A stretch of 40,470 nt of DNA from Escherichia phage GA2A: the sequence record NC_031943.1. One strand, 5' to 3'. The notes below the pieces were generated by a model that was given only the letters and a program-made list of their open reading frames with translations, was not told the origin of the DNA and ran no database searches. This document shows, piece by piece, positions 1 through 40,470 of this stretch (position 1 is its first letter; every line of letters begins with the position of its first letter). The position numbers and the translations under genes are program-made.

Positions 1-165
1 ATCTCACAGTTCAAGAACCTCAAGTCTCCCCATAGGCCCTCTTTCAGTCCAGACCAAAGGCCCTACCCCAGTCTATCATAAGGTTAGACCGATGGTCAAG
101 ACTTCAGGTCAACGATAGGTTGTGGCTATTGGTGGTGGTGGAGACGATAGGTTGGGACTATTGGT
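1..165. repeat. Left direct terminal repeat
   Basis: 1-165 is identical to 40274-40438 at the other end of the window; T7-like genomes carry a terminal redundancy of about this size. Confidence 0.85.
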
Positions 166-200
166 CTGCCTCTGAGTCTCTATCTGTATAACCATAGGTC

Positions 201-264
201 TAACCAACCTACAGTCTAACCAACCTACAGTCTAACCAACCTACAGTCTAACCAACCTACAGTC
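201..264. repeat. Four perfect tandem copies of the 16-bp unit TAACCAACCTACAGTC, with degenerate copies to ~306
   Basis: Read directly; related CCTACAGT motifs recur near the right end (40193-40240). Confidence 0.8.
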
Positions 265-416
265 TAACCATAAGACACCAACACCTACAGTCAGAGACCT
301 ACAGTTAATAGACACACAGCTATAGACTTAAAGTCTAAGACATGTTAGTCAAAGACTATATCCTCTTACACCATGGGGGCCGACGATAGCTTAATCAATA
401 TTATTTAAAATTACCT

Positions 417-446
417 ATTGACTATAGGTCCAGACTGTGGCCTAAT
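417..446 (+). promoter_or_regulatory. Candidate host sigma70 early promoter
   Basis: TTGACT at 417-422 resembles the -35 of T7 A1; the -10 candidates (CCTAAT, TAATAG) are poor. Confidence 0.2.
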
Positions 447-557
447 AGCTTCCGTCAACACGACACGGCAACAACCGGATAGTGAAGACGCCGGGTCGGT
501 CCGGTTAAGTAGTCAGCCTGTAAGACATACGAACAACAGGCAACCGACATAAAGCAG

Positions 558-587
558 TTGACAAGTAGTAACGACTTAAAGTAGTAT
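558..587 (+). promoter_or_regulatory. Candidate host sigma70 early promoter
   Basis: TTGACA at 558-563, 18-nt spacer, TAGTAT at 582-587; correct position and orientation for early transcription. Confidence 0.3.
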
Positions 588-897
588 GATTTACCAAGCA
601 GCAAGACGCTACCAAGGACTGGCAGCAGGTACACTCTAAGCGCCTCACTAAGAGTAAATTGAGAGGTCGGGCTTCACCGAGTGAAGAAGGTCTGGTTGTC
701 GGATACTAAGTCACTACCTATAGCGCGGTGACAGACAAGGTTAGGAACTACCTAATACCTCGGAGGTTGACGACCTCAACGCTCTTTAACAATCTGGATA
801 AACTCTTAATGTGCGCCGATAGCGACTAACTACAGGGTCTTTGAGTCTACATCTGAAGGCCCTGACTGATAGTCACTAACTTAAATAGGGTAACATT

Positions 898-1074
898 ATG
901 AAAATCATAGCGATGAACGAAGAACTGGGCGTAATCTGGTACACGGCTACCGACTATAAATATCGCACTAAGCATGTGATAATCTACGGATTGACTAAGA
1001 CTGAGCACCAGAGCCGCAAGCAAGCGCAGGACGAGTTCAATAAGTGCCTGGACCATGCGTTCAACTGCCGGTGA
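898..1074 (+). CDS. Hypothetical early protein, 58 aa (first early ORF)
   Basis: ATG at 898 to TGA at 1072-1074; below the 60-aa track cutoff; preceded by conserved 22-bp leader repeat 860-881; no recognisable homolog. Confidence 0.35.
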   Translation: MKIIAMNEELGVIWYTATDYKYRTKHVIIYGLTKTEHQSRKQAQDEFNKCLDHAFNCR

Positions 1075-1137
1075 TTAACTACAGGTCGTTAACTCATAGC
1101 GGCCTGACTGATAGTCACTAACTATAGGATAAACAAG

Positions 1138-1662
1138 ATGAAACTGATAGGTAAAGGCGCGTTCACTAAATGCTACCTGAAGGATTGCGGGAGGCGTGTA
1201 ATTCTGGTCTCTTCTGACCCGATAAAAGAGTGTATGGCGTGGGGATGGTTCCCTGAGTCTCCACTGTTCCCTGAAGTCAAGATGATTGAGGTTGGCACGT
1301 ATGAGATGGACTACATGCCACCAACACGGGGTCTCAAGGCGCATTTAGATGATGACCAGTGGCAGCTCTATCAGGTGCTGCGTGATTGCTTCGCATGGTC
1401 TCCGGTATTCTCTCGACCTGATGACCTGTATCACAAGTGGTACGAGATATTCCAAGCTGCACACGACAGGTCCGAGACTGAGACTGTGCGGGAAGGTCTG
1501 ATGGATGTGCTGATGGCTCTGGATGCTTGCGCTAACTTCGGGTCTGATATTCAGTTTGAGATAAGCCCGCGCAATGTACGGGCAGTGAATGGTAAGCTGA
1601 TACTAGTGGATTGCTTCTTCCTTGTGTCCAAGCTGCAAGAGGTGAGGTCATCAAGATGGTAA
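1138..1662 (+). CDS. Protein kinase-like early protein, short gp0.7-like kinase domain only
   Basis: 174-aa ORF; N-terminal GKGAFTKCY resembles the Gly-rich loop GNGHFSAAY of T7 gp0.7; C-terminal SPRNVRAVNGKLILVDCFF resembles its catalytic segment; lacks the C-terminal shut-off domain. Confidence 0.5.
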   Translation: MKLIGKGAFTKCYLKDCGRRVILVSSDPIKECMAWGWFPESPLFPEVKMIEVGTYEMDYMPPTRGLKAHLDDDQWQLYQVLRDCFAWSPVFSRPDDLYHKWYEIFQAAHDRSETETVREGLMDVLMALDACANFGSDIQFEISPRNVRAVNGKLILVDCFFLVSKLQEVRSSRW

Positions 1663-1811
1663 CTTATGGTCTCTGCAAGCACTACGTCACCAACGCCCGG
1701 ATTATGGTCAAGACCGGGCAGATAAACCACGATGAGGCTATGCGTCTCCTGAAAGCGATCTATAAAGGCCGCAAGCGCATACACGACAGCTTACACTCTG
1801 AGGACAAGTAA
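1656..1811 (+). CDS. Hypothetical small early protein, 51 aa
   Basis: Internal ATG of track ORF 1611-1811 with RBS GAGGTGAGG upstream; start overlaps stop of previous gene (ATGGTAA). Confidence 0.3.
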   Translation: MVTYGLCKHYVTNARIMVKTGQINHDEAMRLLKAIYKGRKRIHDSLHSEDK

Positions 1812-1813
1812 AC

Positions 1814-1939
1814 ATGTACCAGATAACTTATAGCAGTGAACAGGCGTTCTACGATGGGTGCTACGAGATGATGAAGCGCGGTGCTTGCTACGTGGCTAAT
1901 CACCATAGCCTGACCATAACTTTGACGGGCGGATACTAA
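1814..1939 (+). CDS. Hypothetical small early protein, 41 aa
   Basis: ATG at 1814 directly after previous stop; TAA at 1937-1939; weak RBS. Confidence 0.2.
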   Translation: MYQITYSSEQAFYDGCYEMMKRGACYVANHHSLTITLTGGY

Positions 1940-2015
1940 CTGCGAGTGATAGACGAGAGGCCATCGACTGATAGGTGGCCTCAAAGATTACCACTTAAAT
2001 TGATAGGAGTTAACT

Positions 2016-2105
2016 ATGAGTGTGGGATATTGGGTTTGCCTAGCACCGGTTATCTTGATGATAGGCTATGGGATATATGACTGTATTAAACGGAAATCAC
2101 TATGA
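2016..2105 (+). CDS. Hypothetical small hydrophobic protein, 29 aa
   Basis: RBS AGGAG 7 nt upstream of ATG; hydrophobic core VCLAPVILMIGYGIY resembles the next ORF. Confidence 0.25.
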   Translation: MSVGYWVCLAPVILMIGYGIYDCIKRKSL

Positions 2106-2299
2106 GTCTTGCACTATTGATAGCCATAGGCTATGGACTTATCGCATACGTGCTGGTGATAGACATCAACAAAGCGCGTAAAGTCTACAAATTCAACTAT
2201 GTACGTCTGGGCCGCTGGACTGTACGTCAACCTAACGGACGATTCATGCGCAACTTAGCGAACGTCTGGGATATAGCAACACTTGGGAGCAAAATGTAA
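2102..2299 (+). CDS. Hypothetical small membrane protein, 65 aa
   Basis: Track ORF; N-terminal hydrophobic segment LALLIAIGYGLIAYVLVI; start overlaps previous stop. Confidence 0.4.
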   Translation: MSLALLIAIGYGLIAYVLVIDINKARKVYKFNYVRLGRWTVRQPNGRFMRNLANVWDIATLGSKM

Positions 2300-2625
2300 T
2301 GAACAAGTCTTACGGGATTAATCTGGTACACTCTATGGCCGCAGAAATGAACATGTTAAGCCTACTGGCTACAGGGTATCGCCACGGAACGTCCTCACAC
2401 ACCGAACGTCAACAGCAGGAGCGAGATCGTGTACTTCAGGCAAGACTCCGGGCCGAGGGCCATAAGTCCGAGCTAATGTGTCTGGCGTATGGTGGACAAC
2501 CAATCACTGACGATGGGAAACTTTTGGTCTCAGGCTGGAAGGCGATAGACCAACGGTCAGCCATCAAGCACACGACTCATGGTGACTTCAGTCATCTTCA
2601 CGCTAACCCACTGATATGCAAGTGA
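2299..2625 (+). CDS. Hypothetical early protein, 108 aa
   Basis: Track ORF; ATG overlaps previous stop (ATGTAATGA); immediately upstream of the RNAP gene. Confidence 0.45.
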   Translation: MNKSYGINLVHSMAAEMNMLSLLATGYRHGTSSHTERQQQERDRVLQARLRAEGHKSELMCLAYGGQPITDDGKLLVSGWKAIDQRSAIKHTTHGDFSHLHANPLICK

Positions 2626-2632
2626 TTCTGAC

Positions 2633-2655
2633 TTAACTATCACTATAGGACTCTG
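2633..2655 (+). promoter_or_regulatory. Phage-RNAP-type promoter upstream of the RNAP gene
   Basis: TTAACTATCACTATAGGA at 2633-2650 matches the consensus shared by 10 other sites in this window. Confidence 0.6.
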
Positions 2656-2722
2656 GGTCTAAGACTACAAGTGAAAGACCAAAGAGACTTTAAGTGAAAG
2701 ACTAATAACAAGGACTTTAAGT

Positions 2723-5404
2723 ATGAGCGTCATCTCTATTGACAAACATGACTTCTCTGATGTGTCGAACGCTATTGAGCCGTTTAACCTGCTGGCAGAC
2801 CACTACGGGCAAGACCTTGCAGTCAAACAACTTCAGCTTGAGCATGAGGCATACACTGAAGGCGAGCGACGTTTCATCAAGAACCTTGAGCGTCAGACTG
2901 AGCGCGGGGAACTGGCAGACAATCAGGTAGCTAAGCCTCTTATGCAGACTCTGGTCCCTAAGATTGCGCAAGCTGTCAAGGAGTGGCATGAAGGTCCAGA
3001 CGGGAAGCTGTCAACCTCTCGTCCGAGCGTAGCGTTCACCATGTTGAGCACTGAAGAGAAGGCCGTCAAGGACCGCTCTCTGCGCATCTCCTGTGAGTCT
3101 GCTGCGGTTATTATACTGAAGGTCATCCTCTCCAAGCTGGTCAAGCCTGAAGGGATACCGATTACACCAATGGCCTCCGCGATAGGGCGCACACTTGAGG
3201 ATGAAATCCGCTTCGGTCGCATCCGTGACAAGGAGCAGGAGCACTTCAAGAAGGCAATAGCTGAGAACCTGAACAAGCGGGCTGGGGCATCCTACAAGAA
3301 AGCCTACATGCAAGCGGTTGAGACCTCCATGCTGGAGCAAGGCCAGCTTGAAGATGCGTGGGGAACTTGGAGTCCGACCGAGGCTGTCCACGTTGGAATC
3401 AAGATGCTTGAGATTGTCATCCAGTCAACGCAACTGGTCGAGCTTAAGCGCTACGGTGCTGGCAATGCAGCGACTGACGTCGAGATGGTCCACCTGTCAG
3501 ACTTCTGGGTCAAGAAGATGGCACAACGAGGATTCAGCCTTGCGGGTATCGCTCCAGTCTACCAACCTTGCGTCGTGCCACCTAAGCCGTGGACTGGTGT
3601 AGTAGGCGGTGGGTACTGGGCCAAAGGTCGCAGACCGTTGCCATTGATTCGCTTAGGGTCTAAGTCTGCGGTGGCACGTTATGAAGATGTGTACATGCCT
3701 GAAGTATACGACGCTGTTAACATCATCCAGAATACACCTTGGAAAGTTAACAAGAAGGTGCTGGACGTGGTGAATATGGTCGAGAAGCTGAATAACACGC
3801 CTATTGACGACATCCCTCAGATGGAACCACTGAAGCCTGAAGACTATGCGGGAGAGACTGAAGAGGAACTCAAGGCATGGAAGAAAGCTGCTGCTGGTAT
3901 CTATCGCCGCGAGAAGGCCAGACAGTCACGCAGGTTGTCACTGAGCTTTATCGTTAACCAAGCGAACAAGTTCTCTCAGTTCAAGGCCATATGGTTCCCG
4001 TATAACATGGATTGGCGAGGCCGTGTCTACGCTGTCCCTATGTTCAACCCTCAAGGTAACGACATGCAGAAGGGTCTCCTGACTCTGGCAGTCGGCAAGC
4101 CTATTGGTGCTGACGGTTTTAAATGGCTGAAGGTCCACGGTGCAAACTGTGCGGGTGTTGATAAAGTCACCTTCGAGGAGCGCATCAAGTGGGTGGAAGA
4201 CAACCACGACAACATCATGACTGCTGCTAAGGCACCGATGGATAGCATTGAGTGGTGGGGCAAGTTAGACTCTCCGTTCTGCTTCCTAGCGTTCTGCTTC
4301 GAGTATGCTGGCGTAATGCACCACGGACTGTCCTACAACTGCTCGCTACCGATAGCGTTCGATGGGTCCTGCTCTGGTATTCAGCACTTCAGCGCGATGC
4401 TTCGTGACCACATCGGTGGACATGCAGTAAACCTGACGCCATCCGGTAAGGTACAGGACATCTACCGCATCGTATCTGACCGCATTGAGGAGGAGCTTAA
4501 AGTCCTGCTGATTAACGGTACGGACAACGAGATGGTAACGCACGAGGACAAGAAAACTGGTGAGATTACCGAGCGTCTCAAGCTGGGGACAAGAGAGCTG
4601 GCCCGTCAGTGGCTGACCTACGGTATGTCACGCAAGGTAACTAAGCGTTCGGTCATGACTCTGGCCTATGGGTCGAAAGAGTATGGCTTCGCAGACCAAG
4701 TTTACGAGGACATCGTGATGCCAGCGATTGACTCAGGGTCTGGCGCTATGTTCACTGAACCAAGCCAGGCGTCTCGCTTCATGGCTAAGATGATTTGGGA
4801 AGCAGTGAGTGTGACCGTAGTTGCTGCGGTTGACGCGATGAAGTGGCTTCAAGGTGCTGCCAAGCTGCTGGCTGCTGAAGTGAAGGACAAGAAGACTGGA
4901 GAAATCCTGAAGCCTTGCCTTCCAGTGCACTGGGTCACACCTGATGGTTTCCCTGTCTGGCAGGAATACCGCAAGAAGGATACCACTCGTCTTAACCTGA
5001 TGTTCTTAGGGTCGTTCAACCTTCAACCTACGGTCAACAAAGGGTCGAAGAAAGAGCTGGATAAGCACAAGCAGGAGTCCGGTATCAGCCCTAACTTTGT
5101 ACACTCACAGGACGGCAGTCACCTGAGGAAGACTGTGGTCCACACCCACAGCAAGTATGGCGTGATGTCCTTCGCGGTGATTCACGATAGCTTTGGGACT
5201 ATCCCTGCTGACGCTGAGTTCCTGTTCAAGGGTGTCCGTGAGACGATGGTCGAGACCTACCGCGACAACGATGTGCTGCAAGACTTCTACGAGCAGTTCG
5301 CGGACCAGCTTCACGAGACCCAGCGCGACAAGTTGCCTGAGTTACCGAAGCGCGGTAAACTGAACATCGAAGACATTCTGTCATCTGACTTTGCATTCGC
5401 CTAA
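2723..5404 (+). CDS. 1: T7-like single-subunit DNA-dependent RNA polymerase
   Basis: 893 aa versus 883 aa for T7 RNAP; C-terminus SSDFAFA matches the T7 RNAP C-terminal FAFA; conserved polymerase-core segments in the middle. Confidence 0.97.
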   Translation: MSVISIDKHDFSDVSNAIEPFNLLADHYGQDLAVKQLQLEHEAYTEGERRFIKNLERQTERGELADNQVAKPLMQTLVPKIAQAVKEWHEGPDGKLSTSRPSVAFTMLSTEEKAVKDRSLRISCESAAVIILKVILSKLVKPEGIPITPMASAIGRTLEDEIRFGRIRDKEQEHFKKAIAENLNKRAGASYKKAYMQAVETSMLEQGQLEDAWGTWSPTEAVHVGIKMLEIVIQSTQLVELKRYGAGNAATDVEMVHLSDFWVKKMAQRGFSLAGIAPVYQPCVVPPKPWTGVVGGGYWAKGRRPLPLIRLGSKSAVARYEDVYMPEVYDAVNIIQNTPWKVNKKVLDVVNMVEKLNNTPIDDIPQMEPLKPEDYAGETEEELKAWKKAAAGIYRREKARQSRRLSLSFIVNQANKFSQFKAIWFPYNMDWRGRVYAVPMFNPQGNDMQKGLLTLAVGKPIGADGFKWLKVHGANCAGVDKVTFEERIKWVEDNHDNIMTAAKAPMDSIEWWGKLDSPFCFLAFCFEYAGVMHHGLSYNCSLPIAFDGSCSGIQHFSAMLRDHIGGHAVNLTPSGKVQDIYRIVSDRIEEELKVLLINGTDNEMVTHEDKKTGEITERLKLGTRELARQWLTYGMSRKVTKRSVMTLAYGSKEYGFADQVYEDIVMPAIDSGSGAMFTEPSQASRFMAKMIWEAVSVTVVAAVDAMKWLQGAAKLLAAEVKDKKTGEILKPCLPVHWVTPDGFPVWQEYRKKDTTRLNLMFLGSFNLQPTVNKGSKKELDKHKQESGISPNFVHSQDGSHLRKTVVHTHSKYGVMSFAVIHDSFGTIPADAEFLFKGVRETMVETYRDNDVLQDFYEQFADQLHETQRDKLPELPKRGKLNIEDILSSDFAFA

Positions 5405-5416
5405 GGAGGCAACCTA

Positions 5417-5617
5417 ATGAAATTCGCACACAAAATCACTAACGTAGAAGGTGGTAATAAGCTGGTAACTGTGACCGAGAACAACGGTAAGGCGCTGGTC
5501 AAGATGACAATGATTCCAGCCGGGACAGCAAAGCGCGTGGGTCTCACCCAGAAGGAGCTGGTCCAGAACGTCCAGTGGTCCCACGAGAAGTCACTCGAAG
5601 CCGAGGCAGCAAAATGA
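5417..5617 (+). CDS. Hypothetical protein, 66 aa
   Basis: Track ORF with strong RBS AAGGAGG before the ATG. Confidence 0.5.
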   Translation: MKFAHKITNVEGGNKLVTVTENNGKALVKMTMIPAGTAKRVGLTQKELVQNVQWSHEKSLEAEAAK

Positions 5618-5691
5618 CAGACCTGAAGTGGCTGGCCTTATGGCTGGCTTTCCTAGCGGTGTATACCTTAATCCAACGCAGAAGAGGTTAA
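5614..5691 (+). CDS. Hypothetical small hydrophobic peptide, 25 aa
   Basis: ATG overlaps previous stop (ATGA); sequence MTDLKWLALWLAFLAVYTLIQRRRG. Confidence 0.2.
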   Translation: MTDLKWLALWLAFLAVYTLIQRRRG

Positions 5692-5695
5692 CCCT

Positions 5696-6169
5696 ATGTT
5701 CTTTAACTCCGCACTGAAAGCACGCATCGCAGAACTTGAACTCCACCTGAAGAACAGCGAGGAGCTGAACAACCATAAGTCAGCGACCATTGATAGCCTA
5801 CGGGCTGAGAAGACCAAGCTGGTGGACCGAGTGTCCTACCTTCAAGGCAAGAAAGCGCCAATCAAGGTTAAGCGGATGGTCGGACTGAAGTTCCGGGCGC
5901 TGTTAAACGGCCTCTATCAGCCTACCGAGTTCAAGACCGGGCCGGGCAACTGTGGGAAGAACGTTAAGCACTTCACTGTAACAAAGACCGACCGCACCCT
6001 GACCATCCACCAGCACCACGTTGACGACTCTCAGAAAGACTTCGAGTACCGACTGAGTGACATCGACGGTCGCATCCAGTATGACTATGAGATGGTGCAG
6101 GTTTACGGTGAGGAGGCAGAACAAGAGCGAGCACTTCAGGCGATGATTAGAAGACCACGCTTTGCCTAA
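5696..6169 (+). CDS. Hypothetical protein, 157 aa, N-terminal coiled-coil-like
   Basis: Track ORF; RBS AGAGG; its stop TAA is the first three bases of the next phage promoter; lies where T7 has its replication origin. Confidence 0.55.
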   Translation: MFFNSALKARIAELELHLKNSEELNNHKSATIDSLRAEKTKLVDRVSYLQGKKAPIKVKRMVGLKFRALLNGLYQPTEFKTGPGNCGKNVKHFTVTKTDRTLTIHQHHVDDSQKDFEYRLSDIDGRIQYDYEMVQVYGEEAEQERALQAMIRRPRFA

Positions 6170-6189
6170 ACTATCACTATAGGATTAGA
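6167..6189 (+). promoter_or_regulatory. Phage promoter (phi1.1 position)
   Basis: TAAACTATCACTATAGGA. Confidence 0.8.
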
Positions 6190-6228
6190 CTCAAGGTCAT
6201 GACTCAAAGTCGTGGCCTTCATGATTAA
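6186..6228 (+). promoter_or_regulatory. Conserved hairpin element, probable RNase III processing site (R1.1 position)
   Basis: TAGACTCAAGGTCAT...GTGGCCTTCATGATTA; one of three copies (also 13136-13186 and 37256-37298) at positions matching T7 R1.1, R3.8 and R18.5. Confidence 0.55.
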
Positions 6229-6253
6229 CCCTAAACTCAATCAGGAGCTACAC

Positions 6254-6433
6254 ATGTATCAGAACACCGTAAACTTCGAGCGCATCCGTGAACGTCAGCA
6301 GACTGAAGGATACATGCCGAAGGGCCGCAAGCTGAACAAGACTAAACGTGGCGGTGGCGTGAAGGGTGCTTTCCGTAACGCTGAGGGTAAAGACTCTCTG
6401 GTCAACCAAGAGAAGTATTTCGTAGGAGCGTAA
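6254..6433 (+). CDS. 1.1: gp1.1-like small basic protein
   Basis: KGRKLNKTKR matches T7 gp1.1; start taken at the ATG with RBS AGGAG rather than the track start 6212, which lies inside the hairpin element. Confidence 0.7.
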   Translation: MYQNTVNFERIRERQQTEGYMPKGRKLNKTKRGGGVKGAFRNAEGKDSLVNQEKYFVGA

Positions 6434-6436
6434 GAC

Positions 6437-6724
6437 ATGGGCATGTTCTCAAGAGCACATAGTGGAAACCTGAACACCCTGCGTAAGGCCATCCACAACT
6501 GGCAGTCCGAGACCGACTATAACGCAGTGGTCAGCACTTGGTTTGACCCGGTGATGAACAGGCAATGCGTCAGGGCGGGTATAGTCCACATTCATACACG
6601 AGAGGTCCTCATTGAGAAGGACTTCACGGAGTACCCGAATATCCACGACGAAGATGTGCAGACCGTAGCGGTTGCCACTTGGTTTAACAAACAGTTCAAC
6701 GACTACACTGGTAGATTCCTTTAA
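6437..6724 (+). CDS. 1.2: gp1.2-like protein (T7 gp1.2 is an inhibitor of host dGTPase)
   Basis: 95 aa; N-terminal MG....SGNL resembles T7 gp1.2 MGRLYSGNL; conserved position. Confidence 0.7.
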   Translation: MGMFSRAHSGNLNTLRKAIHNWQSETDYNAVVSTWFDPVMNRQCVRAGIVHIHTREVLIEKDFTEYPNIHDEDVQTVAVATWFNKQFNDYTGRFL

Positions 6725-6741
6725 TTCTGGAGACATTAACG

Positions 6742-7821
6742 ATGACAACTATCAAGACCAACCCTCACCTCGCTGTAGATTACTCTGAGTCTGGCGTTAA
6801 GAAGGCACTAGAAGCAGCCGGGTCTCTGGAAGCTGAAGTGAAGTATGACGGTGTGCGGTTGAATATTCCGGTCTTCCCTGATGGGCGAACTGAATGGTTA
6901 AGCCGTGAGTCAAAGACGCTTCCGGCCTTAGACCATTTGTCAACAGTTGGTCAGGACATCGGAGCTTGCCGTGCGTCCGACTGGCGATGGTTCCTGAAGC
7001 AAGCAGGACATGAAGTCTCTGGCCTGATGATTGACGGAGAGGTGATGGTCAAGGGTGTAGACTTCAACACATCCTCAGGTCTTATCCGCACGAAGTGGCT
7101 GAAGCCTGATAACCTCAAGTTCAATGACGTAAAGTTTGACGAGATGCCCCGCAAGTCTACAGGCGCTAAGTCTAAACTTCCGTTCCTGCTAGCACCAGAG
7201 CACATTCAAGTGGTCGTCTACGGGGTCATCGACCTTAACGTCATCAACGACCCGAAAGCTGAAGGTCCTATCCATAGCGTCACACGCCTGAAGGCCGAAG
7301 CTATCGTCCCTCTCCTCCAGAAATACTTCCCGGAAATCGACTGGGTTCTGTCTGAGTCACACACGGTCTATGACCTTGAGTCGCTCAACTCCCTGTACGA
7401 AGAGAAGCGTCTGGAAGGACACGAGGGTCTGGTAGTCAAGGACCCGCTGGGTAAATACAAGCGTGGCAAGAAGTCAGGCATGTGGAAAATGAAACCTGAG
7501 GATACCATTGATGGTATTGTGGTCGGACTGAATTGGGGGACTGAAGGTCTCGCCAACGAAGGGAAGGTCATCGGGTTTGACGTACTGCTTGAGAACGGTA
7601 TGGTCGTAGCTGCAAATAACATTAGCCAGAAGTTGATGGATGAGTTCACAGCTAACGTCATAGAGGCAAGAGACTCCACGGATAAAATACTGCCTTGTGC
7701 CTACTACGAGGGCTGGCAGTGTGAAGTCTCCTACATGGAGATGACACCAGATGGTTCCTTACGTCACCCTAGCTTCAAGTGCTGGCGCGGGACGGAAGAT
7801 AACCCAACGGTGAAATCATGA
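6742..7821 (+). CDS. 1.3: ATP-dependent DNA ligase
   Basis: 359 aa, same as T7 ligase; EVKYDGVR adenylation motif with lysine; long blocks match T7 (LDGEVMVKGVDFNT, EGHEGLVVKDP, KRGKKSGMWKMKPE, PDGSLRHPSF). Confidence 0.96.
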   Translation: MTTIKTNPHLAVDYSESGVKKALEAAGSLEAEVKYDGVRLNIPVFPDGRTEWLSRESKTLPALDHLSTVGQDIGACRASDWRWFLKQAGHEVSGLMIDGEVMVKGVDFNTSSGLIRTKWLKPDNLKFNDVKFDEMPRKSTGAKSKLPFLLAPEHIQVVVYGVIDLNVINDPKAEGPIHSVTRLKAEAIVPLLQKYFPEIDWVLSESHTVYDLESLNSLYEEKRLEGHEGLVVKDPLGKYKRGKKSGMWKMKPEDTIDGIVVGLNWGTEGLANEGKVIGFDVLLENGMVVAANNISQKLMDEFTANVIEARDSTDKILPCAYYEGWQCEVSYMEMTPDGSLRHPSFKCWRGTEDNPTVKS

Positions 7822-7997
7822 GCACGCAACTTTATGTCAACACGGCAAGCGGTCAACTCTACGCCGTAGTAAACGGTGAGCTGTGGTATCGCAAACTCAA
7901 GAAGTGGGCCAAGTCCTACTACGACGAAGAGACAATATCAACCATGAGTCATCGCTACCGAAAGGCTGCTAAGGTGAACAACTTTAAGATGCGTTAA
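7818..7997 (+). CDS. Hypothetical small protein, 59 aa
   Basis: ATG overlaps ligase stop (TCATGA); ends just before the early terminator hairpin; below track cutoff. Confidence 0.35.
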   Translation: MSTQLYVNTASGQLYAVVNGELWYRKLKKWAKSYYDEETISTMSHRYRKAAKVNNFKMR

Positions 7998-8002
7998 TGT
8001 CA

Positions 8003-12967: not shown

Positions 12968-13132
12968 ATGCTGCGAAAACTTAAAGCTCGATACCATCGG
13001 TTCATGTACAAATGGTGGAGCGATGAATCAACCTGCCTGTCGAACATTCTGGGAGACCAGCGGTTCAACTCTAAGGCATGGAAGAAAGCTAACCGGAAGT
13101 TCATGTATCACTTCTTGCGTACAGACTTCTAG
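12968..13132 (+). CDS. Hypothetical small basic protein, 54 aa
   Basis: Strong RBS AAGAGGAGAG 6 nt upstream of ATG; below track cutoff. Confidence 0.45.
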   Translation: MLRKLKARYHRFMYKWWSDESTCLSNILGDQRFNSKAWKKANRKFMYHFLRTDF

Positions 13133-13135
13133 GTC

Positions 13136-13186
13136 TAGACTCAAGGTCATTCACATCGAGTGACCTTTATGATTAGACTAAACGGA
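13136..13186 (+). promoter_or_regulatory. Conserved hairpin element, probable RNase III site (R3.8-like position)
   Basis: TAGACTCAAGGTCAT...GTGACCTTTATGATTA; second copy of the element. Confidence 0.55.
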
Positions 13187-18464: not shown

Positions 18465-18689
18465 ATGTGTTTCAGTCCAAAGATTAGCACTCCGAAGCCG
18501 TCTGTCCAAGCACCTGAACCAGCACCTCTGAGTGAGGAGGTTGCGTCAGTTGACATCGGGGCAGAATCGGATGTAGACACCAACGAGACCAAAGGTATCA
18601 AAGACCTTAAGGTTAAGAAGGAGTCTGCACCTAAAGATAAATCGTCAGTGAGTCGCGCTATGCGGGCCTCTGGCGTAAACATGGGGTAA
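18465..18689 (+). CDS. 6.7: gp6.7-like virion protein
   Basis: N-terminus MCFSPKI matches T7 gp6.7; RBS AGGAGGG. Confidence 0.7.
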   Translation: MCFSPKISTPKPSVQAPEPAPLSEEVASVDIGAESDVDTNETKGIKDLKVKKESAPKDKSSVSRAMRASGVNMG

Positions 18690-19746: not shown

Positions 19747-21307
19747 ACGTGAAGGGTTCGCTGCTGAAGGCGCGAAGTCAGTTTATGATAGATTAAAGAA
19801 CGGACGACAGCCATATGAGACGCGCGCTCAGAACTGTGCTGCCGTGACCATCCCCTCGCTATTTCCCAAGGAGTCCGACAACTCGTCTACGGAATACGTG
19901 ACGCCGTGGCAAGCTGTAGGTGCTCGCTGCTTGAACAACTTGGCCGCAAAGCTAATGTTGGCGTTATTCCCGCAGTCACCGTGGATGCGACTGACAGTCT
20001 CAGAATATGAGGCCAAGACCTTGAGTCAGGACTCAGAGGCCGCTGCTCGTGTTGACGAAGGGCTGGCTATGGTCGAGCGTGTGTTGATGGCCTACATGGA
20101 GACAAACAGTTTCCGTGTCCCACTGTTTGAAGCTCTGAAGCAGCTTATCGTCTCCGGTAACTGTCTGCTTTACATTCCTCCTCCAGAACAAGGAACCTAC
20201 AGTCCCATGCGAATGTACCGCTTAGTGTCTTACGTTGTTCAACGTGATGCGTTCGGTAACATCTTGCAGATTGTGACTCTCGACAAGGTAGCGTTTAGTG
20301 CTCTACCGGAAGACGTGAAGTCTCAACTCAACGCAGACGACTATGAGCCTGACACCGAGCTTGAAGTGTATACGCACATATACCGTCAGGACGATGAGTA
20401 TCTGCGATATGAGGAAGTGGAAGGCATTGAGGTAACAGGGACCGATGGTTCCTACCCGCTGACTGCATGTCCATACATCCCGGTACGAATGGTTCGACTG
20501 GATGGTGAAGACTATGGTCGTTCTTACTGCGAGGAGTATCTGGGAGACCTGAACTCGCTGGAGACGATTACAGAAGCTATCACCAAAATGGCTAAGGTAG
20601 CCTCCAAAGTGGTGGGCCTCGTTAACCCGAACGGTATCACGCAACCTCGACGTCTGAACAAGGCGGCTACAGGTGAGTTCGTGGCGGGTCGAGTAGAGGA
20701 CATCAACTTCCTGCAACTGACGAAAGGTCAGGACTTTACGATTGCCAAGTCGGTGGCTGATGCTATCGAGCAACGTTTAGGCTGGGCCTTCCTTCTTAAT
20801 AGTGCTGTTCAGCGTAATGCCGAGCGAGTAACTGCTGAAGAGATTCGTTATGTTGCTGGCGAACTGGAGGCGACCTTAGGTGGCGTGTACTCAGTACAGT
20901 CACAAGAGCTTCAGTTACCTATCGTCCGTGTACTGATGAACCAGCTTCAGTCTGCTGGCATGATTCCTGACCTTCCGAAAGAAGCGGTAGAGCCTACGGT
21001 CTCCACTGGTCTGGAAGCTCTGGGCCGTGGTCAGGACTTGGAGAAGCTGACTCAGGCAGTAAACATGATGACTGGTCTTCAGCAGCTCTCTCAGGACCCG
21101 GACATCAACTTGCCGACCCTTAAGCTGCGACTTCTGAACGCTCTGGGTATAGACACCGCTGGCCTGCTCCTGACGCAAGACGAGAAGCTGCAACGTATGG
21201 CTGAACAATCCGCTCAAGGAGCTGTGGTCAATGGTGCGTCTGCTGCTGGTGCTAACATGGGCGCTGCTGTAGGTCAGGGAGCTGGTGAGGACATGGCTCA
21301 AGCCTAA
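19739..21307 (+). CDS. 8: Portal (head-to-tail connector) protein
   Basis: 522 aa; extensive identity to T7 gp8 (YETRAQNCA, TPWQAVGAR, YRLVSYVVQRDAFGN, CPYIPVRMVRLDGEDYGRSY, VTAEEIRYVA, STGLEALGRGQDL). Confidence 0.97.
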   Translation: MAEREGFAAEGAKSVYDRLKNGRQPYETRAQNCAAVTIPSLFPKESDNSSTEYVTPWQAVGARCLNNLAAKLMLALFPQSPWMRLTVSEYEAKTLSQDSEAAARVDEGLAMVERVLMAYMETNSFRVPLFEALKQLIVSGNCLLYIPPPEQGTYSPMRMYRLVSYVVQRDAFGNILQIVTLDKVAFSALPEDVKSQLNADDYEPDTELEVYTHIYRQDDEYLRYEEVEGIEVTGTDGSYPLTACPYIPVRMVRLDGEDYGRSYCEEYLGDLNSLETITEAITKMAKVASKVVGLVNPNGITQPRRLNKAATGEFVAGRVEDINFLQLTKGQDFTIAKSVADAIEQRLGWAFLLNSAVQRNAERVTAEEIRYVAGELEATLGGVYSVQSQELQLPIVRVLMNQLQSAGMIPDLPKEAVEPTVSTGLEALGRGQDLEKLTQAVNMMTGLQQLSQDPDINLPTLKLRLLNALGIDTAGLLLTQDEKLQRMAEQSAQGAVVNGASAAGANMGAAVGQGAGEDMAQA

Positions 21308-24608: not shown

Positions 24609-26978
24609 ATGCCACTTTATACACAAAGCATTAAGAACCTTAAGGGTGGAATTAGCCAACAGCCTGACATCCTTCGGTTCTCTGACCAAGGGGAGACCCA
24701 GATTAACGGATGGTCCTCTGAAAGTGATGGACTCCAGAAGCGTCCACCTACAGTCTGGAAGAAGCGACTAACCGCTCTGAACGAGGTTATCCCTGACCGG
24801 GCAAAGTTCCACCTGATTAACCGTGACGAGAATGAGCAGTATTACATCGTGTTCACTGGTAGTGATATTATGGTGTTAGACCTTGAGGGGAACCAGTACG
24901 CTGTGACTGGGGACATGAATTACGTTAACACCGACGCACCTCGTGATGACATCCGGGTTATTACAGTGGCTGACTACACGTTCATCGTCAACCGTAAGCG
25001 AGTCGTTAGGGAAGGGACTGAGGTCTCACATCCGGGATACGACATGAAGCACCGAGCGTTGATTAACCTTCGCGGTGGTCAGTACGGCAGAACGCTGACG
25101 GTCTCAATCAATGGTGGGGCCAAGGTAGAGCACACGCTCCCGGCTGGTAATAATGCTGAAGAGGACCCACCTAAGGTCGATGCTCAGTACATCGGTGCGC
25201 AACTGAGGACACTTCTGGTCGCTGCATATCCGAACTATACGTTCAACCTCGGGTCAGGCTACCTTGAGATTGTTGCTCCTGCTGGACAGTCCATCACCTC
25301 CGTAGAGACGACTGACGGTTACGCTAACCAGCTAATCACTGCGGTCATTGATACGGTACAGACTATCAGTAAGCTGCCTCTGGCGGCTCCTGAGGGTTAT
25401 ATCATCCGTATCCAAGGTGAGACCAACAGTAGCGCTGATGAATACTACGTTCGGTATGACACCCAGCGTAAGACTTGGCGTGAGACGGTTGAGCCGGGAG
25501 TGACTACAGGTCTGGACCCTGAGACAATGCCCCATGCTCTGGTTCGTCAGGTTAACGGGAACTTTACGTTCCAGACGCTGAACTGGTCTAAGCGCGGTGC
25601 TGGTAACGAGGACACTAACCCGATGCCATCCTTCGTGGATAACACCATCAACGATGTGTTCTTCTACCGTAATCGTCTTGGCTTCCTGTCTGGAGAGAAC
25701 GTTGTGATGTCTCGTTCAGCCAGCTACTTTGCGTTCTTCCCTAAGAGCGTGGCGACCCTCAGTGATGACGACCCTATTGATGTGGCTGTGAGTCACCCTC
25801 GAATCTCCATCCTGAAGTATGCCGTGCCGTTCGCTGAACAGTTGCTGCTGTGGTCGGATGAGGTTCAGTTCGTGATGACCAGCTCTGGAGTCTTGACCTC
25901 CAAGTCCATTCAACTTGATGTTGGCTCTGAGTTCGCTGTGAGTGATAATGCTCGACCGTTCGCTATTGGACGTTCAGTCTTCTTCGCTGCGCCTCGTGGA
26001 TCATTCACCAGCATTAACCGTTACTTTGCTGTGGCGGATGTGACAGACGTTAAGGACGCAGACGATACGACAGGGCACGTGCTCTCCTACATTCCGAACG
26101 GGGTCTTCGACATCCAAGGGTCTTCGACTGAGAACTTCATTACTGTGTCGACTGAGGGTGCTCCGAACAAGCTGTTTATCTACAAGTTCCTCTTCAAGGA
26201 TGGAGTGCAGCTTCAAGCCTCTTGGTCTCACTGGGAGTTGGAGCAAGGAGAGCAGATTATGGCCTCAGCCTGTATAGGGTCCTCTATGTACATCGTGCGT
26301 AAGCATGGCTACGGAGTTGACTTGGAAAAGCTGGAGTTCATCAAGGAGGCTGTGGACATCGGCGGGGAACCCTACCGTCTCCATCTTGATGGTAAAACCA
26401 CTATGGTCATCCCGACTGACGCGTTCAACCCTGACACCTACACCTCGTCCTTCGACGTTGGTGTGGCATACGGTGGAGTTTTCCCACCAGCAGGGAAGTA
26501 TGTCATGGTCGACTCCGGTGGGCGCTCCGTGCAGCTACCAGACACCGTATGGTCCAGCACCCGGTGGGTGACTGTGAAGGGCGATTGGTCAGGCAAGACA
26601 GTGTTCATCGGTCGTGTCTATAAGTTCACCTACGCCTTCTCTAGGTTCCTCATCAAGTACGAGGACCAGAACGGGACGATTACGGAAGACTCCGGTCGAC
26701 TCCAGCTTCGCCGCGCTTGGGTGAACTATCAGCGCACTGGCGCTCTGGTGATGCGTGTCGTCAACCAACAGCGTGAGTTCCTGAACACCCTTAACGGCTA
26801 CAAGCTTGGACTACAGGACATCGGTCGGGTCAACATTGGTGACGGTCAGTTCAGGTTCCCAATGAACGGAGACGCTCTGCACACTCGGTTAATCCTTGAG
26901 TCAGACTATCCGACCCCAGTGTCCATCGTTGGTTGCGGCTGGGAGGCTTCATATGCCCGTAAAGCCAAAGCTATCTAA
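24609..26978 (+). CDS. 12: Tail tubular protein B
   Basis: 789 aa versus 794 for T7; SIKNLKGGISQQPDILR, NGWSSE, VADYTFIVNR, RNRLGFLSGEN, DDDPIDVAVS, ILKYAVPF, GRLQLRRAWVNY, IVGCGWE match T7 gp12. Confidence 0.97.
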   Translation: MPLYTQSIKNLKGGISQQPDILRFSDQGETQINGWSSESDGLQKRPPTVWKKRLTALNEVIPDRAKFHLINRDENEQYYIVFTGSDIMVLDLEGNQYAVTGDMNYVNTDAPRDDIRVITVADYTFIVNRKRVVREGTEVSHPGYDMKHRALINLRGGQYGRTLTVSINGGAKVEHTLPAGNNAEEDPPKVDAQYIGAQLRTLLVAAYPNYTFNLGSGYLEIVAPAGQSITSVETTDGYANQLITAVIDTVQTISKLPLAAPEGYIIRIQGETNSSADEYYVRYDTQRKTWRETVEPGVTTGLDPETMPHALVRQVNGNFTFQTLNWSKRGAGNEDTNPMPSFVDNTINDVFFYRNRLGFLSGENVVMSRSASYFAFFPKSVATLSDDDPIDVAVSHPRISILKYAVPFAEQLLLWSDEVQFVMTSSGVLTSKSIQLDVGSEFAVSDNARPFAIGRSVFFAAPRGSFTSINRYFAVADVTDVKDADDTTGHVLSYIPNGVFDIQGSSTENFITVSTEGAPNKLFIYKFLFKDGVQLQASWSHWELEQGEQIMASACIGSSMYIVRKHGYGVDLEKLEFIKEAVDIGGEPYRLHLDGKTTMVIPTDAFNPDTYTSSFDVGVAYGGVFPPAGKYVMVDSGGRSVQLPDTVWSSTRWVTVKGDWSGKTVFIGRVYKFTYAFSRFLIKYEDQNGTITEDSGRLQLRRAWVNYQRTGALVMRVVNQQREFLNTLNGYKLGLQDIGRVNIGDGQFRFPMNGDALHTRLILESDYPTPVSIVGCGWEASYARKAKAI

Positions 26979-37251: not shown

Positions 37252-37255
37252 GTGT

Positions 37256-37298
37256 TAGACTCAAGGTCATTACTAATATGTAGTGGCCTTTATGATTA
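37256..37298 (+). promoter_or_regulatory. Conserved hairpin element, probable RNase III site (R18.5 position)
   Basis: TAGACTCAAGGTCAT...GTGGCCTTTATGATTA; third copy of the element. Confidence 0.55.
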
Positions 37299-37351
37299 AC
37301 ACACTACGAGAGGCGACTCTACGTGGATTCTTTAAAACGAGGAGGGCAACT

Positions 37352-40273: not shown

Positions 40274-40470
40274 ATCTCACAGTTCAAGAACCTCAAGTCT
40301 CCCCATAGGCCCTCTTTCAGTCCAGACCAAAGGCCCTACCCCAGTCTATCATAAGGTTAGACCGATGGTCAAGACTTCAGGTCAACGATAGGTTGTGGCT
40401 ATTGGTGGTGGTGGAGACGATAGGTTGGGACTATTGGTGGTGGTGGAGACGATAGGTTGGGACTATTGGT
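40274..40470. repeat. Right direct terminal repeat plus one extra partial tandem unit
   Basis: 40274-40438 identical to 1-165; 40439-40470 repeats the preceding unit GGTGGTGGAGACGATAGGTTGGGACTATTGGT. Confidence 0.85.

What the first reader, a model, noticed from the sequence alone, without database searches (positions are those of the whole stretch)
862..1123. 22-bp direct repeat forming the leader of the first two early ORFs
CCTGACTGATAGTCACTAACT occurs at 860-881 and again at 1102-1123, each 15-17 nt upstream of an ATG (898 and 1138). The second copy continues ATAGGA and partly resembles the phage promoter core, but has a 4-nt insertion relative to consensus. These could be host promoter elements, RNase III or RNase E sites (the T7 R0.3 and R0.5 positions), or translational operators.
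Basis: seen in the sequence. Interest (0 to 1): 0.4.

Follow-up and report, generated by a model that had tools for sequence, protein, structure and literature searches.

The report
RNase III processing hairpins flanking early genes
The repeated 21-base sequence is the downstream half of two copies of a T7-type RNA hairpin that the host enzyme RNase III most likely cuts to separate the phage's early messages; this is an ordinary feature of T7-like phages, though here it also marks where early genes are swapped between related phages.

Summary
The repeat is real. It is an exact 21-mer at 861-881 and 1103-1123 (not 22 bp from 860/1102), with none expected by chance. The window is a complete K1F-like (Kayfunavirus) T7-group phage genome.

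Each copy is the 3' arm of a two-stem hairpin (820-878 and 1069-1120) with a 4-nt/5-nt internal loop. This is the architecture of the T7/T3 RNase III sites R0.3, R0.5 and R1. A covariance model trained only on 14 T3/T7 sites recovers both hairpins (29.1 and 35.2 bits; noise is 13.5 bits or less), plus four more sites in the window. All 210 hits in 80 related phages are on the transcribed strand, and covariation is strong.

By register with T7, cleavage is predicted at U867|G868 and U1109|G1110. Both ORFs would then get the same 5' leader start, GAUAGUCACUAACU.

The repeats are not phage promoters (weight-matrix score -8.5 and -12.3, against 33-42 for the 11 real ones). They are not sigma-70 promoters or terminators either.

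Across the genus the same module precedes at least nine unrelated early ORFs, and mosaic breakpoints fall exactly at its end. It probably also serves as a recombination joint. This is a new member of a known kind, of low to moderate interest. No cleavage was tested.

The parts
861..881 (+). Repeat copy 1. It forms the 3' arm of hairpin A: the last 4 nt of the upper stem (CCUG), the 3' side of the internal loop (ACUGA), the lower-stem 3' strand (UAGUC) and a tail (ACUAACU).
   Evidence: Exact match; position within the fold; alignment to the T3/T7 model.
1103..1123 (+). Repeat copy 2, the 3' arm of hairpin B, with the same anatomy as copy 1.
820..878 (+). Hairpin A, a predicted RNase III processing site ahead of the first ORF (the equivalent of T7 R0.3). 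Lower stem 820-828/870-878; 4-nt/5-nt internal loop 829-832/865-869 with a C830-G868 pair; upper stem 833-842/855-864.
   Evidence: MFE fold -23.2 kcal/mol, z = -2.6. Same bracket pattern as T7 R0.3. T3/T7-only model gives 29.1 bits, E about 8e-5.
1069..1120 (+). Hairpin B, a predicted RNase III site between ORF1 and ORF2 (in the position of T7 R0.5, with a T7 R1-like sequence). Lower stem 1070-1077/1112-1119; internal loop 1078-1081/1107-1111 with a C1079-G1110 pair; upper stem 1082-1091/1097-1106; loop 1092-1096.
   Evidence: MFE fold -21.8 kcal/mol, z = -3.4, 0 of 200 shuffles as stable. Model score 35.2 bits, E about 2e-6.
824..836 (+). 5'-arm repeat GACTAACTACAGG of hairpin A. Its partner copy is GATTAACTACAGG at 1073-1085.
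   Evidence: family D3.
1073..1085 (+). 5'-arm repeat of hairpin B. The ORF1 stop codon TGA (1072-1074) lies inside it.
867..868 (+). Predicted scissile bond of site A (U867|G868). The downstream RNA would start pGAUAGUCACUAACU, 30 nt before AUG 898.
   Evidence: Inference by register with the T7 sites: the remembered T7 cleavage coordinates 890, 1468, 3138 and 5887 all fall 3 nt after the upper stem in the T7 sequence. Not tested.
1109..1110 (+). Predicted scissile bond of site B (U1109|G1110), giving a 28-nt leader before AUG 1138.
   Evidence: Same inference as for site A. Not tested.
898..1074 (+). ORF1, 58 aa, function unknown (phrog_20418). It is the cassette gene bounded by hairpins A and B.
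   Evidence: The cassette is absent in L128 and joined to ocr in L139.
1138..1662 (+). ORF2, 174 aa, function unknown (phrog_11084). It is the first gene after hairpin B.
1944..1996 (+). Third early RNase III-type hairpin, with a different sequence but in the same family.
   Evidence: Model score 29.6 bits, E about 6e-5.
6180..6233 (+). RNase III-type hairpin overlapping the end of a phage promoter (T7 R1.1-like). Same family, shown for context.
   Evidence: 47.3 bits; promoter at 6161-6189.
13130..13181 (+). RNase III-type hairpin in the middle region. Same family, shown for context.
   Evidence: 44.3 bits.
37252..37302 (+). RNase III-type hairpin in the late region (T7/T3 R18.5-like). Same family, shown for context.
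   Evidence: 44.2 bits.
558..587 (+). Best sigma-70-like promoter candidate upstream of hairpin A (TTGACA-18-TAGTAT), a plausible start of the early transcript that carries the hairpins.
   Evidence: 10 of 12 consensus matches. This is a consensus match only.

Best explanation
The two repeats are the 3' arms of two T7-type RNase III processing signals in the early, host-polymerase-made polycistronic RNA of a K1F-like phage. Each signal folds into about two helical turns interrupted by an asymmetric 4-nt/5-nt internal loop. Host RNase III binds the hairpin, and the loop restricts it to one cut on the 3' side. The cuts are predicted at U867|G868 and U1109|G1110. Cleavage leaves the hairpin on the 3' end of the upstream fragment as an exonuclease barrier. 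It also gives each downstream message a defined, unstructured 5' leader (GAUAGUCACUAACU..., then a Shine-Dalgarno sequence, then AUG), whichever promoter was used. The fold, the family resemblance, the strand bias and the covariation are shown here; cleavage, its exact position and its effects on stability or translation are inferred. A second layer is also inferred. Because the same module of about 55 nt sits between unrelated early genes across the genus, it provides short homology patches where early-gene cassettes are gained, lost and exchanged. That would explain why the two copies in this genome are identical over 21 nt.
For: The genome is T7-like (Kayfunavirus): it has a 165-bp terminal repeat, 11 phage promoters, and closest matches to K1F-type phages.

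Both copies lie in stable hairpins with z = -2.6 and -3.4. Their bracket pattern is the same as T7 R0.3 and T3 R0.3/R0.5, which the T3 record annotates as RNase III recognition sites. The internal loop is 4 nt/5 nt (ACUA/ACUGA), as described for the model site T7 R1.1 (PMC6121014).

The first six upper-stem pairs of hairpin B are identical to those of T7 R1. Pairs 2-6 of hairpin A match T7 R0.3 (read directly from the sequences).

A covariance model built from 14 T3/T7 sites only finds exactly six sites in the window, all on the + strand and all intergenic. These include B at 35.2 bits and A at 29.1 bits; the next best hit is 13.5 bits.

As a control, in the complete T7 and T3 genomes the model hits only the training sites plus two held-out R6.5 sites at about 23 bits. 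Nothing else exceeds 13.3 bits.

In 80 RNAP-anchored relatives all 210 hits are on the transcribed strand. On their alignment 93.7% of cells pair, against 25-47% when the partner is slid, and 14 of 19 pairs change on both sides.

Mechanistic background comes from the literature. Internal loops limit RNase III to one phosphodiester and leave protective 3' hairpins (PMC1540722; PMC3867540). There are five such signals in the T7 early precursor (PMC3867540).

Evidence for the joint role: the module precedes at least 9 unrelated ORF families. Relatives are identical up to ...CACTAAC and then diverge abruptly. L128 equals the window minus exactly 882-1123, and L139 joins the same ORF1 cassette to ocr. 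Flank identity falls to about 0.3 just outside the hairpin.
Against: There is no experimental evidence for this phage or its genus, and no transcript ends were mapped.

The loop sequence on the cut side (ACU|GA) differs from the T7/T3 consensus (UAU|GA or AAU|AG).

The seventh upper-stem pair of hairpin B is G-C where T7 R1 has A-U. If I place the distal box correctly, that position lies in it, and substitutions there lowered reactivity in a minimal substrate (PMC1540722).

Hairpin A scores only 29 bits and has a longer, bulged upper stem.

The model hits reflect shared ancestry with T7/T3, so they are not independent proof of function. The covariation alignment was fitted to the model, which favours pairing.

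The predicted scissile bonds rest on T7 coordinates recalled from memory (Dunn and Studier 1983); I could check them only for internal consistency.

For the recombination layer, breakpoints at the ends of a conserved patch are expected from any crossover inside it. Selection for intact genes could also enrich boundaries there.
Confidence: 0.8

Rival explanations
1. The hairpins bind RNase III or another double-strand RNA binding factor without being cut, or they act purely as RNA stability or structure elements. The repeat would then be a binding or stability signal rather than a processing site.
For: Binding can be uncoupled from cleavage by particular base pairs near the scissile bond (PMC1540722). 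The window's loop and first upper-stem pair (C-G) differ from most T7/T3 sites (alignments).
Against: T7 R1 and T3 R1 share the same C-G/A-U/G-C/G-C start. T3 R1 is annotated as an RNase III recognition site, and T7 R1 is recalled as one of the mapped early cleavage sites. The 4/5 loop geometry is the cleaved type.
Confidence: 0.07
2. The repeat is only a DNA-level trace of a recent duplication or cassette insertion by recombination, and has no RNA function of its own.
For: L128 differs from the window by exactly one repeat-to-repeat unit. Breakpoints coincide with the end of the module.
Against: Both arms are conserved and the upper stems of A and B differ yet stay paired. Hits are strictly on one strand in 80 genomes, with compensatory changes. 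There is homology to annotated T3 sites. A pure DNA remnant would not keep pairing.
Confidence: 0.05
3. The repeat is a translational operator or an RNase E entry site in the leader of each ORF.
For: It lies 14-16 nt upstream of each AUG, and its tail (ACUAACU) is A/U/C-rich and predicted to be unpaired.
Against: The Shine-Dalgarno sequence and AUG lie outside the hairpin and outside the exact repeat. In relatives the same module precedes at least 9 unrelated ORFs with different leaders, which does not suit a gene-specific operator. Nothing here tests RNase E.
Confidence: 0.05
4. Copy 2, or both copies, is a weak or degenerate phage RNA polymerase promoter, or a host sigma-70 promoter.
For: TCAC-TAAC-TATAGGA resembles the promoter core TCACTATAGGA with a 4-nt insertion.
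Against: With a weight matrix from the genome's 11 promoters, real sites score 32.8-42.3 bits and the next best site 8.4. Copy B scores -8.5 and copy A -12.3. No sigma-70-like site was found on the + strand at 800-1140, and no terminator-like site either.
Confidence: 0.02

Closest known systems
T7 and T3 early RNase III processing signals R0.3, R0.5 and R1 (Dunn and Studier 1983, from memory; annotated as stem_loop features in T3 record NC_003298)
   Same: Both are hairpins of about 50-58 nt with a lower stem, an asymmetric 4/5-nt internal loop containing one C-G pair, and an upper stem of 9-10 bp. Both sit on the transcribed strand, between the host promoters and the first gene and between early genes. 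They share sequence blocks (ACAGGUC...GGCCUGA, GAUAKUCACUAA). Both are recovered by a model trained only on T3/T7 sites.
   Different: The cut-side loop reads ACUGA, not UAUGA (most sites) or AAUAG (R1). Hairpin A has a longer, bulged upper stem. The two sites share 21 identical nt, whereas T7 R0.3 and R0.5 share only about 10. The genes they flank (58-aa and 174-aa ORFs of unknown function) are not those of T7/T3. Cleavage is untested.
PeSLs (promoter-early stem-loops), the mobile regulatory cassettes of T4-type phages (PMC2839356, PMC4122927)
   Same: Both are short conserved regulatory motifs that flank variable early genes, and insertion, deletion and replacement boundaries coincide with them.
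   Different: PeSLs combine an early promoter with a stem-loop terminator. The motif here has no promoter and no U-run; it is an RNase III-type hairpin in a T7-like podovirus. The resemblance is an analogy only, not membership.
T7-group phage RNA polymerase promoters (in this genome, consensus CTAAACTATCACTATAGGRA)
   Same: They partly share a core, TCAC...TATAGGA, at 1113-1129.
   Different: There is a 4-nt insertion and no match to the upstream specificity region. The weight-matrix score is 41 bits or more below the weakest real promoter.

Membership tests
T7-type RNase III processing signal | Hairpin of about two helical turns interrupted by an asymmetric (4-nt/5-nt) internal loop | tested here: met
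   The folds of 815-897 and 1062-1137 give a lower stem, an ACUA/ACUGA loop and a 10-bp upper stem. The bracket pattern is identical to T7 R0.3 and T3 R0.3/R0.5. The 4/5 loop is described for R1.1 in PMC6121014.
T7-type RNase III processing signal | Sequence and structure similarity to experimentally defined or annotated sites, judged by a model that excludes the candidates | tested here: met
   A covariance model built from 14 T3/T7 sites scores B at 35.2 bits and A at 29.1 bits. Background is 13.5 bits or less in the window and 13.3 bits or less in T7+T3. Held-out R6.5 sites score about 23 bits.
T7-type RNase III processing signal | Lies on the transcribed strand, in a leader or between cistrons of a polycistronic transcript | tested here: met
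   Hairpin A lies between the promoter-like site at 558-587 and ORF1, and hairpin B between ORF1 and ORF2. All 6 window hits and all 210 hits in 80 relatives are on the + strand.
T7-type RNase III processing signal | Base pairing maintained by compensatory change among homologues | tested here: met
   93.7% of cells pair, against 25-47% with slid partners. 14 of 19 pairs change on both sides, and 0 of 500 shuffles reach the observed score. Caveat: the alignment was fitted to the model.
T7-type RNase III processing signal | Proximal- and distal-box base pairs compatible with E. coli RNase III binding and cleavage | tested here: inconclusive
   The first six upper-stem pairs of hairpin B equal those of T7 R1, but the seventh is G-C where T7 R1 has A-U (read from the sequences). 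The box rules come from a minimal substrate (PMC1540722), and I could not fix the numbering with certainty.
T7-type RNase III processing signal | RNase III-dependent cleavage at a single phosphodiester in the loop, in vivo or in vitro | not testable with these tools
   This needs rnc+ versus rnc- transcript end mapping or an in vitro cleavage assay. The predicted bonds are U867|G868 and U1109|G1110.
Phage (T7-group) RNA polymerase promoter | Match to the genome's own 23-nt promoter consensus | tested here: not met
   Weight-matrix scores are -8.5 (copy B) and -12.3 (copy A), against 32.8-42.3 for the 11 promoters.
Sigma-70 promoter or intrinsic terminator | -35/-10 hexamers with correct spacing, or a G+C-rich stem followed by a U-run | tested here: not met
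   No + strand promoter-like or terminator-like site was found at 800-1140. The hairpins are followed by CACUAACU, not by a U-run.
PeSL-type mobile regulatory cassette (T4-type phages) | Composite early promoter plus stem-loop terminator flanking variable genes | tested here: not met
   The flanking of variable genes and the breakpoint coincidence are met. The motif contains no promoter or terminator, so this is an analogy only.

The most novel reading that the evidence does not exclude
The RNase III hairpin is not only a processing signal. It is also the portable linker of an early-gene cassette system in K1F-like phages, and probably in other T7-group phages. Each cassette consists of leader, ORF and hairpin. 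The roughly 55-nt hairpin supplies the homology for recombination that inserts, deletes or swaps early genes, and its 5' arm supplies stop codons in two frames. If so, the repertoire of first-expressed genes could turn over quickly. Some of these genes are known or suspected anti-defence functions: ocr, and SAM-hydrolase-like ORFs identified by N-terminal resemblance only. This would be a T7-group counterpart of the PeSL cassettes of T4-type phages.
Probability: 0.5. Interest if true: 0.45.

Novelty: new member of a known kind. Interest (0 to 1): 0.2.

Why it matters
For annotation, this places two more T7-type RNase III processing signals (plus four others) in a phage genus whose database records do not annotate them: BLAST hits under the hairpins list 'none' or only flanking proteins, and the paper library holds nothing on RNase III in Kayfunavirus. 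It also gives testable cut positions.

For biology, the more useful point is comparative. The same hairpin bounds at least nine unrelated early ORFs across the genus, and mosaic breakpoints sit exactly at its edge. The processing signals therefore appear to double as the seams along which the first-expressed genes are exchanged. This helps in predicting gene boundaries in these hypervariable regions. It also suggests a natural, already-tolerated insertion point for engineering early-gene cassettes into T7-like therapeutic phages.

None of this changes what is known about RNase III itself.

Tried and rejected
Rfam: no family matched in 1-8000 at E up to 1. The library has no family for these sites, so this says nothing against them.

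Annotated T7 cleavage positions: the T7 records NC_001604 and V01146 show no RNase III features in the tool's table. I therefore used the T3 stem_loop annotation and my recalled T7 coordinates. The recalled early coordinates are self-consistent. My recalled T7 R6.5 coordinate (18852) showed no hairpin; the model places that site at 18507-18569.

Literature: the K1F genome paper and the 1988 Nicholson paper are not held. Searches for RNase III with K1F or Kayfunavirus found nothing relevant. PMC3276506 only lists R-site names. PMC6212723 gives rules for double cuts in regular stems, which cannot be applied directly to single-cut loop sites.

The 15-mer scan of viral contigs mostly returned chance matches in unrelated contigs; only 22 of 128 had the partner arm.

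Rejected readings: phage promoter, and sigma-70 promoter or intrinsic terminator.

ORF2 as a T7 gp0.7-like kinase, which would have linked it to RNase III stimulation: BLASTP E = 1.7, with no Pfam or NCBIfam hit. Not supported.

Full report
**What the window is**

The 40,470-base window is a complete T7-group phage genome. It has a 165-bp direct terminal repeat (1-165 = 40274-40438) and 11 copies of a T7-type promoter with consensus CTAAACTATCACTATAGGRA. It has an 893-aa single-subunit RNA polymerase gene at 2723-5404. Its closest database matches (about 90-93% identity over the left 3.5 kb) are to Escherichia, Salmonella, Enterobacter and Citrobacter phages of the K1F type, genus Kayfunavirus. 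The finding lies in the early region, upstream of the polymerase gene. In T7-like phages the host RNA polymerase must transcribe this region.

**Checking the observation**

CCTGACTGATAGTCACTAACT occurs exactly twice, at 861-881 and 1103-1123 on the + strand. No third copy appears even with three mismatches, and none appeared in 100 shuffles. The exact repeat is 21 bp, because bases 860 (C) and 1102 (G) differ. The ATGs of a 58-aa ORF (898-1074) and a 174-aa ORF (1138-1662) follow after 16 and 14 nt.

**What it is**

The upstream and downstream repeats are the two arms of a hairpin. The segments 815-897 and 1062-1137 fold at -23.2 and -21.8 kcal/mol, with z = -2.6 and -3.4 against dinucleotide shuffles. 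Each fold has three parts:
- a lower stem: 820-828/870-878 in A and 1070-1077/1112-1119 in B;
- an asymmetric internal loop of 4 nt (ACUA) on the 5' side and 5 nt (ACUGA) on the 3' side, containing one C-G pair;
- a 10-bp upper stem.

The apical halves of the two upper stems differ in sequence (GGGUCUUUG.../...GAAGGCCC versus GGUCGUUA/UAGCGGCC), yet both pair.

The dot-bracket pattern matches that of T7 R0.3 and T3 R0.3/R0.5. The T3 record annotates those T3 sites as 'RNase III recognition site' stem-loops. Sequence blocks are shared as well:
- T7 R1: ACAGGUCAUC...GGUGGCCUGAAUAGG...UUUACUAACU
- T7 R0.3: ...GCCCUUUAUGAUAUUCACUAAUAACU
- window: ACAGGUCGUUA...GGCCUGACUGAUAGUCACUAACU

The 4-nt/5-nt loop is the hallmark described for the model substrate T7 R1.1 (PMC6121014).

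**Membership test with an independent model**

I aligned 14 canonical T3 and T7 sites (R0.3, R0.5, R1, R1.1, R1.3, R4.7, R18.5 of each) with no window or Kayfunavirus sequence. I imposed the consensus structure and built a covariance model.

Scanning the whole window with filters off gave six hits, all on the + strand and all intergenic:

| Position | Bits | Note |
|---|---|---|
| 6180-6233 | 47.3 | |
| 13130-13181 | 44.3 | |
| 37252-37302 | 44.2 | |
| 1069-1120 | 35.2 | hairpin B, E about 2e-6 |
| 1944-1996 | 29.6 | |
| 820-878 | 29.1 | hairpin A, E about 8e-5 |

The next best hit scores 13.5 bits (E about 0.9).

As a specificity control, I scanned 78 kb of complete T7 and T3, both strands. 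The model hits only the training sites plus two R6.5 sites that were held out: the annotated T3 site (23.2 bits) and the matching T7 position (23.5 bits). Nothing else exceeds 13.3 bits.

**Comparative support**

I anchored on the RNA polymerase gene and fetched 80 early regions from viral contigs, spanning 58-99% polymerase identity. The model finds 210 sites in them, every one on the transcribed strand. On the resulting alignment (87 distinct sequences) 93.7% of cells form standard pairs, against 25-47% when the 3' partner is slid by 1-3 columns. Fourteen of 19 pairs show changes on both sides, and no shuffle of 500 reaches the observed covariation score. The alignment is model-fitted, which favours pairing, but the contrast with the slid controls is large.

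**How it most likely works**

Established knowledge supplies the mechanism. E. coli RNase III processes the roughly 7000-nt T7 early polycistronic precursor at five signals (PMC3867540). Internal loops limit cleavage to a single phosphodiester. The hairpin left at the 3' end of the upstream product protects it from 3'-5' exonucleases (PMC1540722; PMC3867540).

My recalled T7 cleavage coordinates (890, 1468, 3138, 5887) all fall three nucleotides after the last upper-stem pair when placed on the T7 sequence (UAU|GA or AAU|AG). By the same register the window sites would be cut at U867|G868 and U1109|G1110. Both downstream messages would then begin pGAUAGUCACUAACU, with leaders of 30 and 28 nt carrying AGGG and AGGA Shine-Dalgarno elements.

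The 21-mer therefore comprises the end of the upper stem, the cut-side loop, the lower-stem 3' strand, and the first 14 nt of the processed leader. The cut, its position and its consequences are inferred, not shown.

**Rivals**

- Phage promoter: a weight matrix from the genome's 11 promoters scores them 32.8-42.3 bits and the next best site 8.4. The best positions overlapping copies B and A score -8.5 and -12.3. The TCAC-TAAC-TATAGGA resemblance is therefore not a promoter.
- Sigma-70 promoter or intrinsic terminator: no such site lies on the + strand at 800-1140.
- Gene-specific translational operator: this is unlikely, because the Shine-Dalgarno sequence and AUG lie outside the hairpin and because relatives use the same module before unrelated genes.
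- Binding without cleavage: this cannot be excluded in silico. The cut-side loop sequence differs from the T7/T3 consensus, and one upper-stem pair of hairpin B (G-C for A-U) may fall in the distal box.

**Why the two copies are identical: the cassette layer**

A distant BLAST of 815-1140 finds 209 phage records. Many matches are split into two pieces around a different insert. K1F itself has hairpin A before gp0.2 and hairpin B before gene 0.3 (ocr).

Across 24 K1F-like loci and the window, the 3'-arm module (at most 4 mismatches, mostly 0-2) precedes at least nine unrelated ORF families:
- ocr;
- gp0.2;
- a T3-SAM-hydrolase-like 150-aa ORF (identified by N-terminal resemblance, from memory);
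- a 244-aa ORF;
- the 58-aa and 174-aa ORFs of the window;
- ORFs of 92, 67 and 51 aa.

Genomes carry one to three copies.

In a four-way alignment the genomes are essentially identical through ...GATAGTCACTAAC and diverge completely at the next base. L128 equals the window minus exactly 882-1123, which is one repeat-to-repeat unit. L139 has the same ORF1 cassette and hairpin B, but continues into ocr.

Mean pairwise identity drops from 0.85 at positions +15..+19 of the arm to 0.40 and then about 0.3. It is also about 0.3-0.4 upstream of the 5' arm. The anchored core was selected by pattern, so only the flanks are informative.

These are the signatures of recombination within the hairpin sequence. 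The closest described analogue is the PeSL cassette of T4-type phages (PMC2839356). The motif here has no promoter or terminator, so it is not a member of that family.

**Comparison with the known, and novelty**

The element works like the T7/T3 early RNase III processing signals, and by every testable criterion it belongs to that family. Only cleavage itself is untested, and the box rules are inconclusive.

It differs in four ways:
- the cut-side loop sequence;
- a longer upper stem in hairpin A;
- the unusual 21-nt identity between the two sites;
- the genes it flanks.

Database records of this genus do not annotate these sites, and I found no paper on them. It is therefore a new member of a known kind.

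A specialist would not be surprised by the sites themselves. The cassette-seam pattern is a modestly interesting comparative observation.

**Verdict**

Confidence is 0.8 that these are RNase III processing signals and about 0.5 that they also act as recombination joints. Interest is 0.2.

Noticed in passing
window 1944-1996, 6180-6233, 13130-13181, 37252-37302: Four further hairpins of the same RNase III-site family, found with the T3/T7-trained model (29.6-47.3 bits). The one at 6180 overlaps the end of a phage promoter, as T7 R1.1 does. No such hairpin precedes the RNA polymerase gene, where T7 and T3 have R1.
   Followed up: partly
window 1072-1080 and 819-831: The 5' arm of each hairpin carries stop codons in two of the three frames: TGA and TAA in GTGATTAAC, TAG and TAA in GATAGCGACTAAC. 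The TGA at 1072-1074 is the actual stop of ORF1. This could let the module terminate whatever ORF is recombined in upstream of it.
   Followed up: partly
L142 899-934 versus window 1103-1138: In relative L142 the same module and the identical leader ATAGGATAAACAAG-ATG are followed by a different ORF (67 aa, MAYRKMTKAEV...) instead of the window's 174-aa ORF. Some mosaic breakpoints therefore lie at the start codon, not at the end of the hairpin.
   Followed up: no
window 1-2722 (early region): This phage has no homologue of K1F ocr (gene 0.3) or gp0.2 anywhere in the genome (tblastn best E = 0.56). Its early region instead holds small ORFs of unknown function (phrog_20418, 11084, 33188, 2385, 7066; no Pfam or NCBIfam hits).
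   Followed up: partly
window 1138-1662: The 174-aa ORF begins MKLIGKGAFTKCY..., which reminded me of a kinase glycine-rich loop and of T7 gp0.7. BLASTP against T7 gp0.7 gives only E = 1.7, and no family model matches, so the resemblance is unsupported at sequence level. No structure was predicted.
   Followed up: partly
window 182-277: Five tandem copies of a 16-bp unit (GTCTAACCAACCTACA) lie just inside the left terminal repeat. Related CCTACAGTC motifs occur at 20180-20204 and 24732-24755.
   Followed up: no
window 40274-40470 versus 1-165: The terminal repeat is 165 bp, but the right end continues 32 nt further with an extra copy of the internal 32-nt unit ACGATAGGTTGGGACTATTGGTGGTGGTGGAG (40417-40470 is 96% identical to 112-165). 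The true repeat may be longer or variable, or the ends may be an assembly artefact (D1 and D7).
   Followed up: no
window 2627-2705: A full-strength phage promoter (34.6 bits) sits directly upstream of the phage RNA polymerase gene. It is followed by a 21-nt tandem duplication, AGACTACAAGTGAAAGACCAA / AGACTTTAAGTGAAAGACTAA (2662-2705). T7 has no phage promoter at this position.
   Followed up: no
L133, L134, L138, L140, L141 (for example L141 1687-1707); L167, L177, L184, L187, L200: More distant relatives carry variant 3' arms (CCTGACTGATTGTCACTTAAC; CCTGAAAGATAACCACTAACT) ahead of a 244-aa ORF and of SAM-hydrolase-like ORFs (so called from N-terminal resemblance only). The module appears to evolve in lineage-specific versions.
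   Followed up: no
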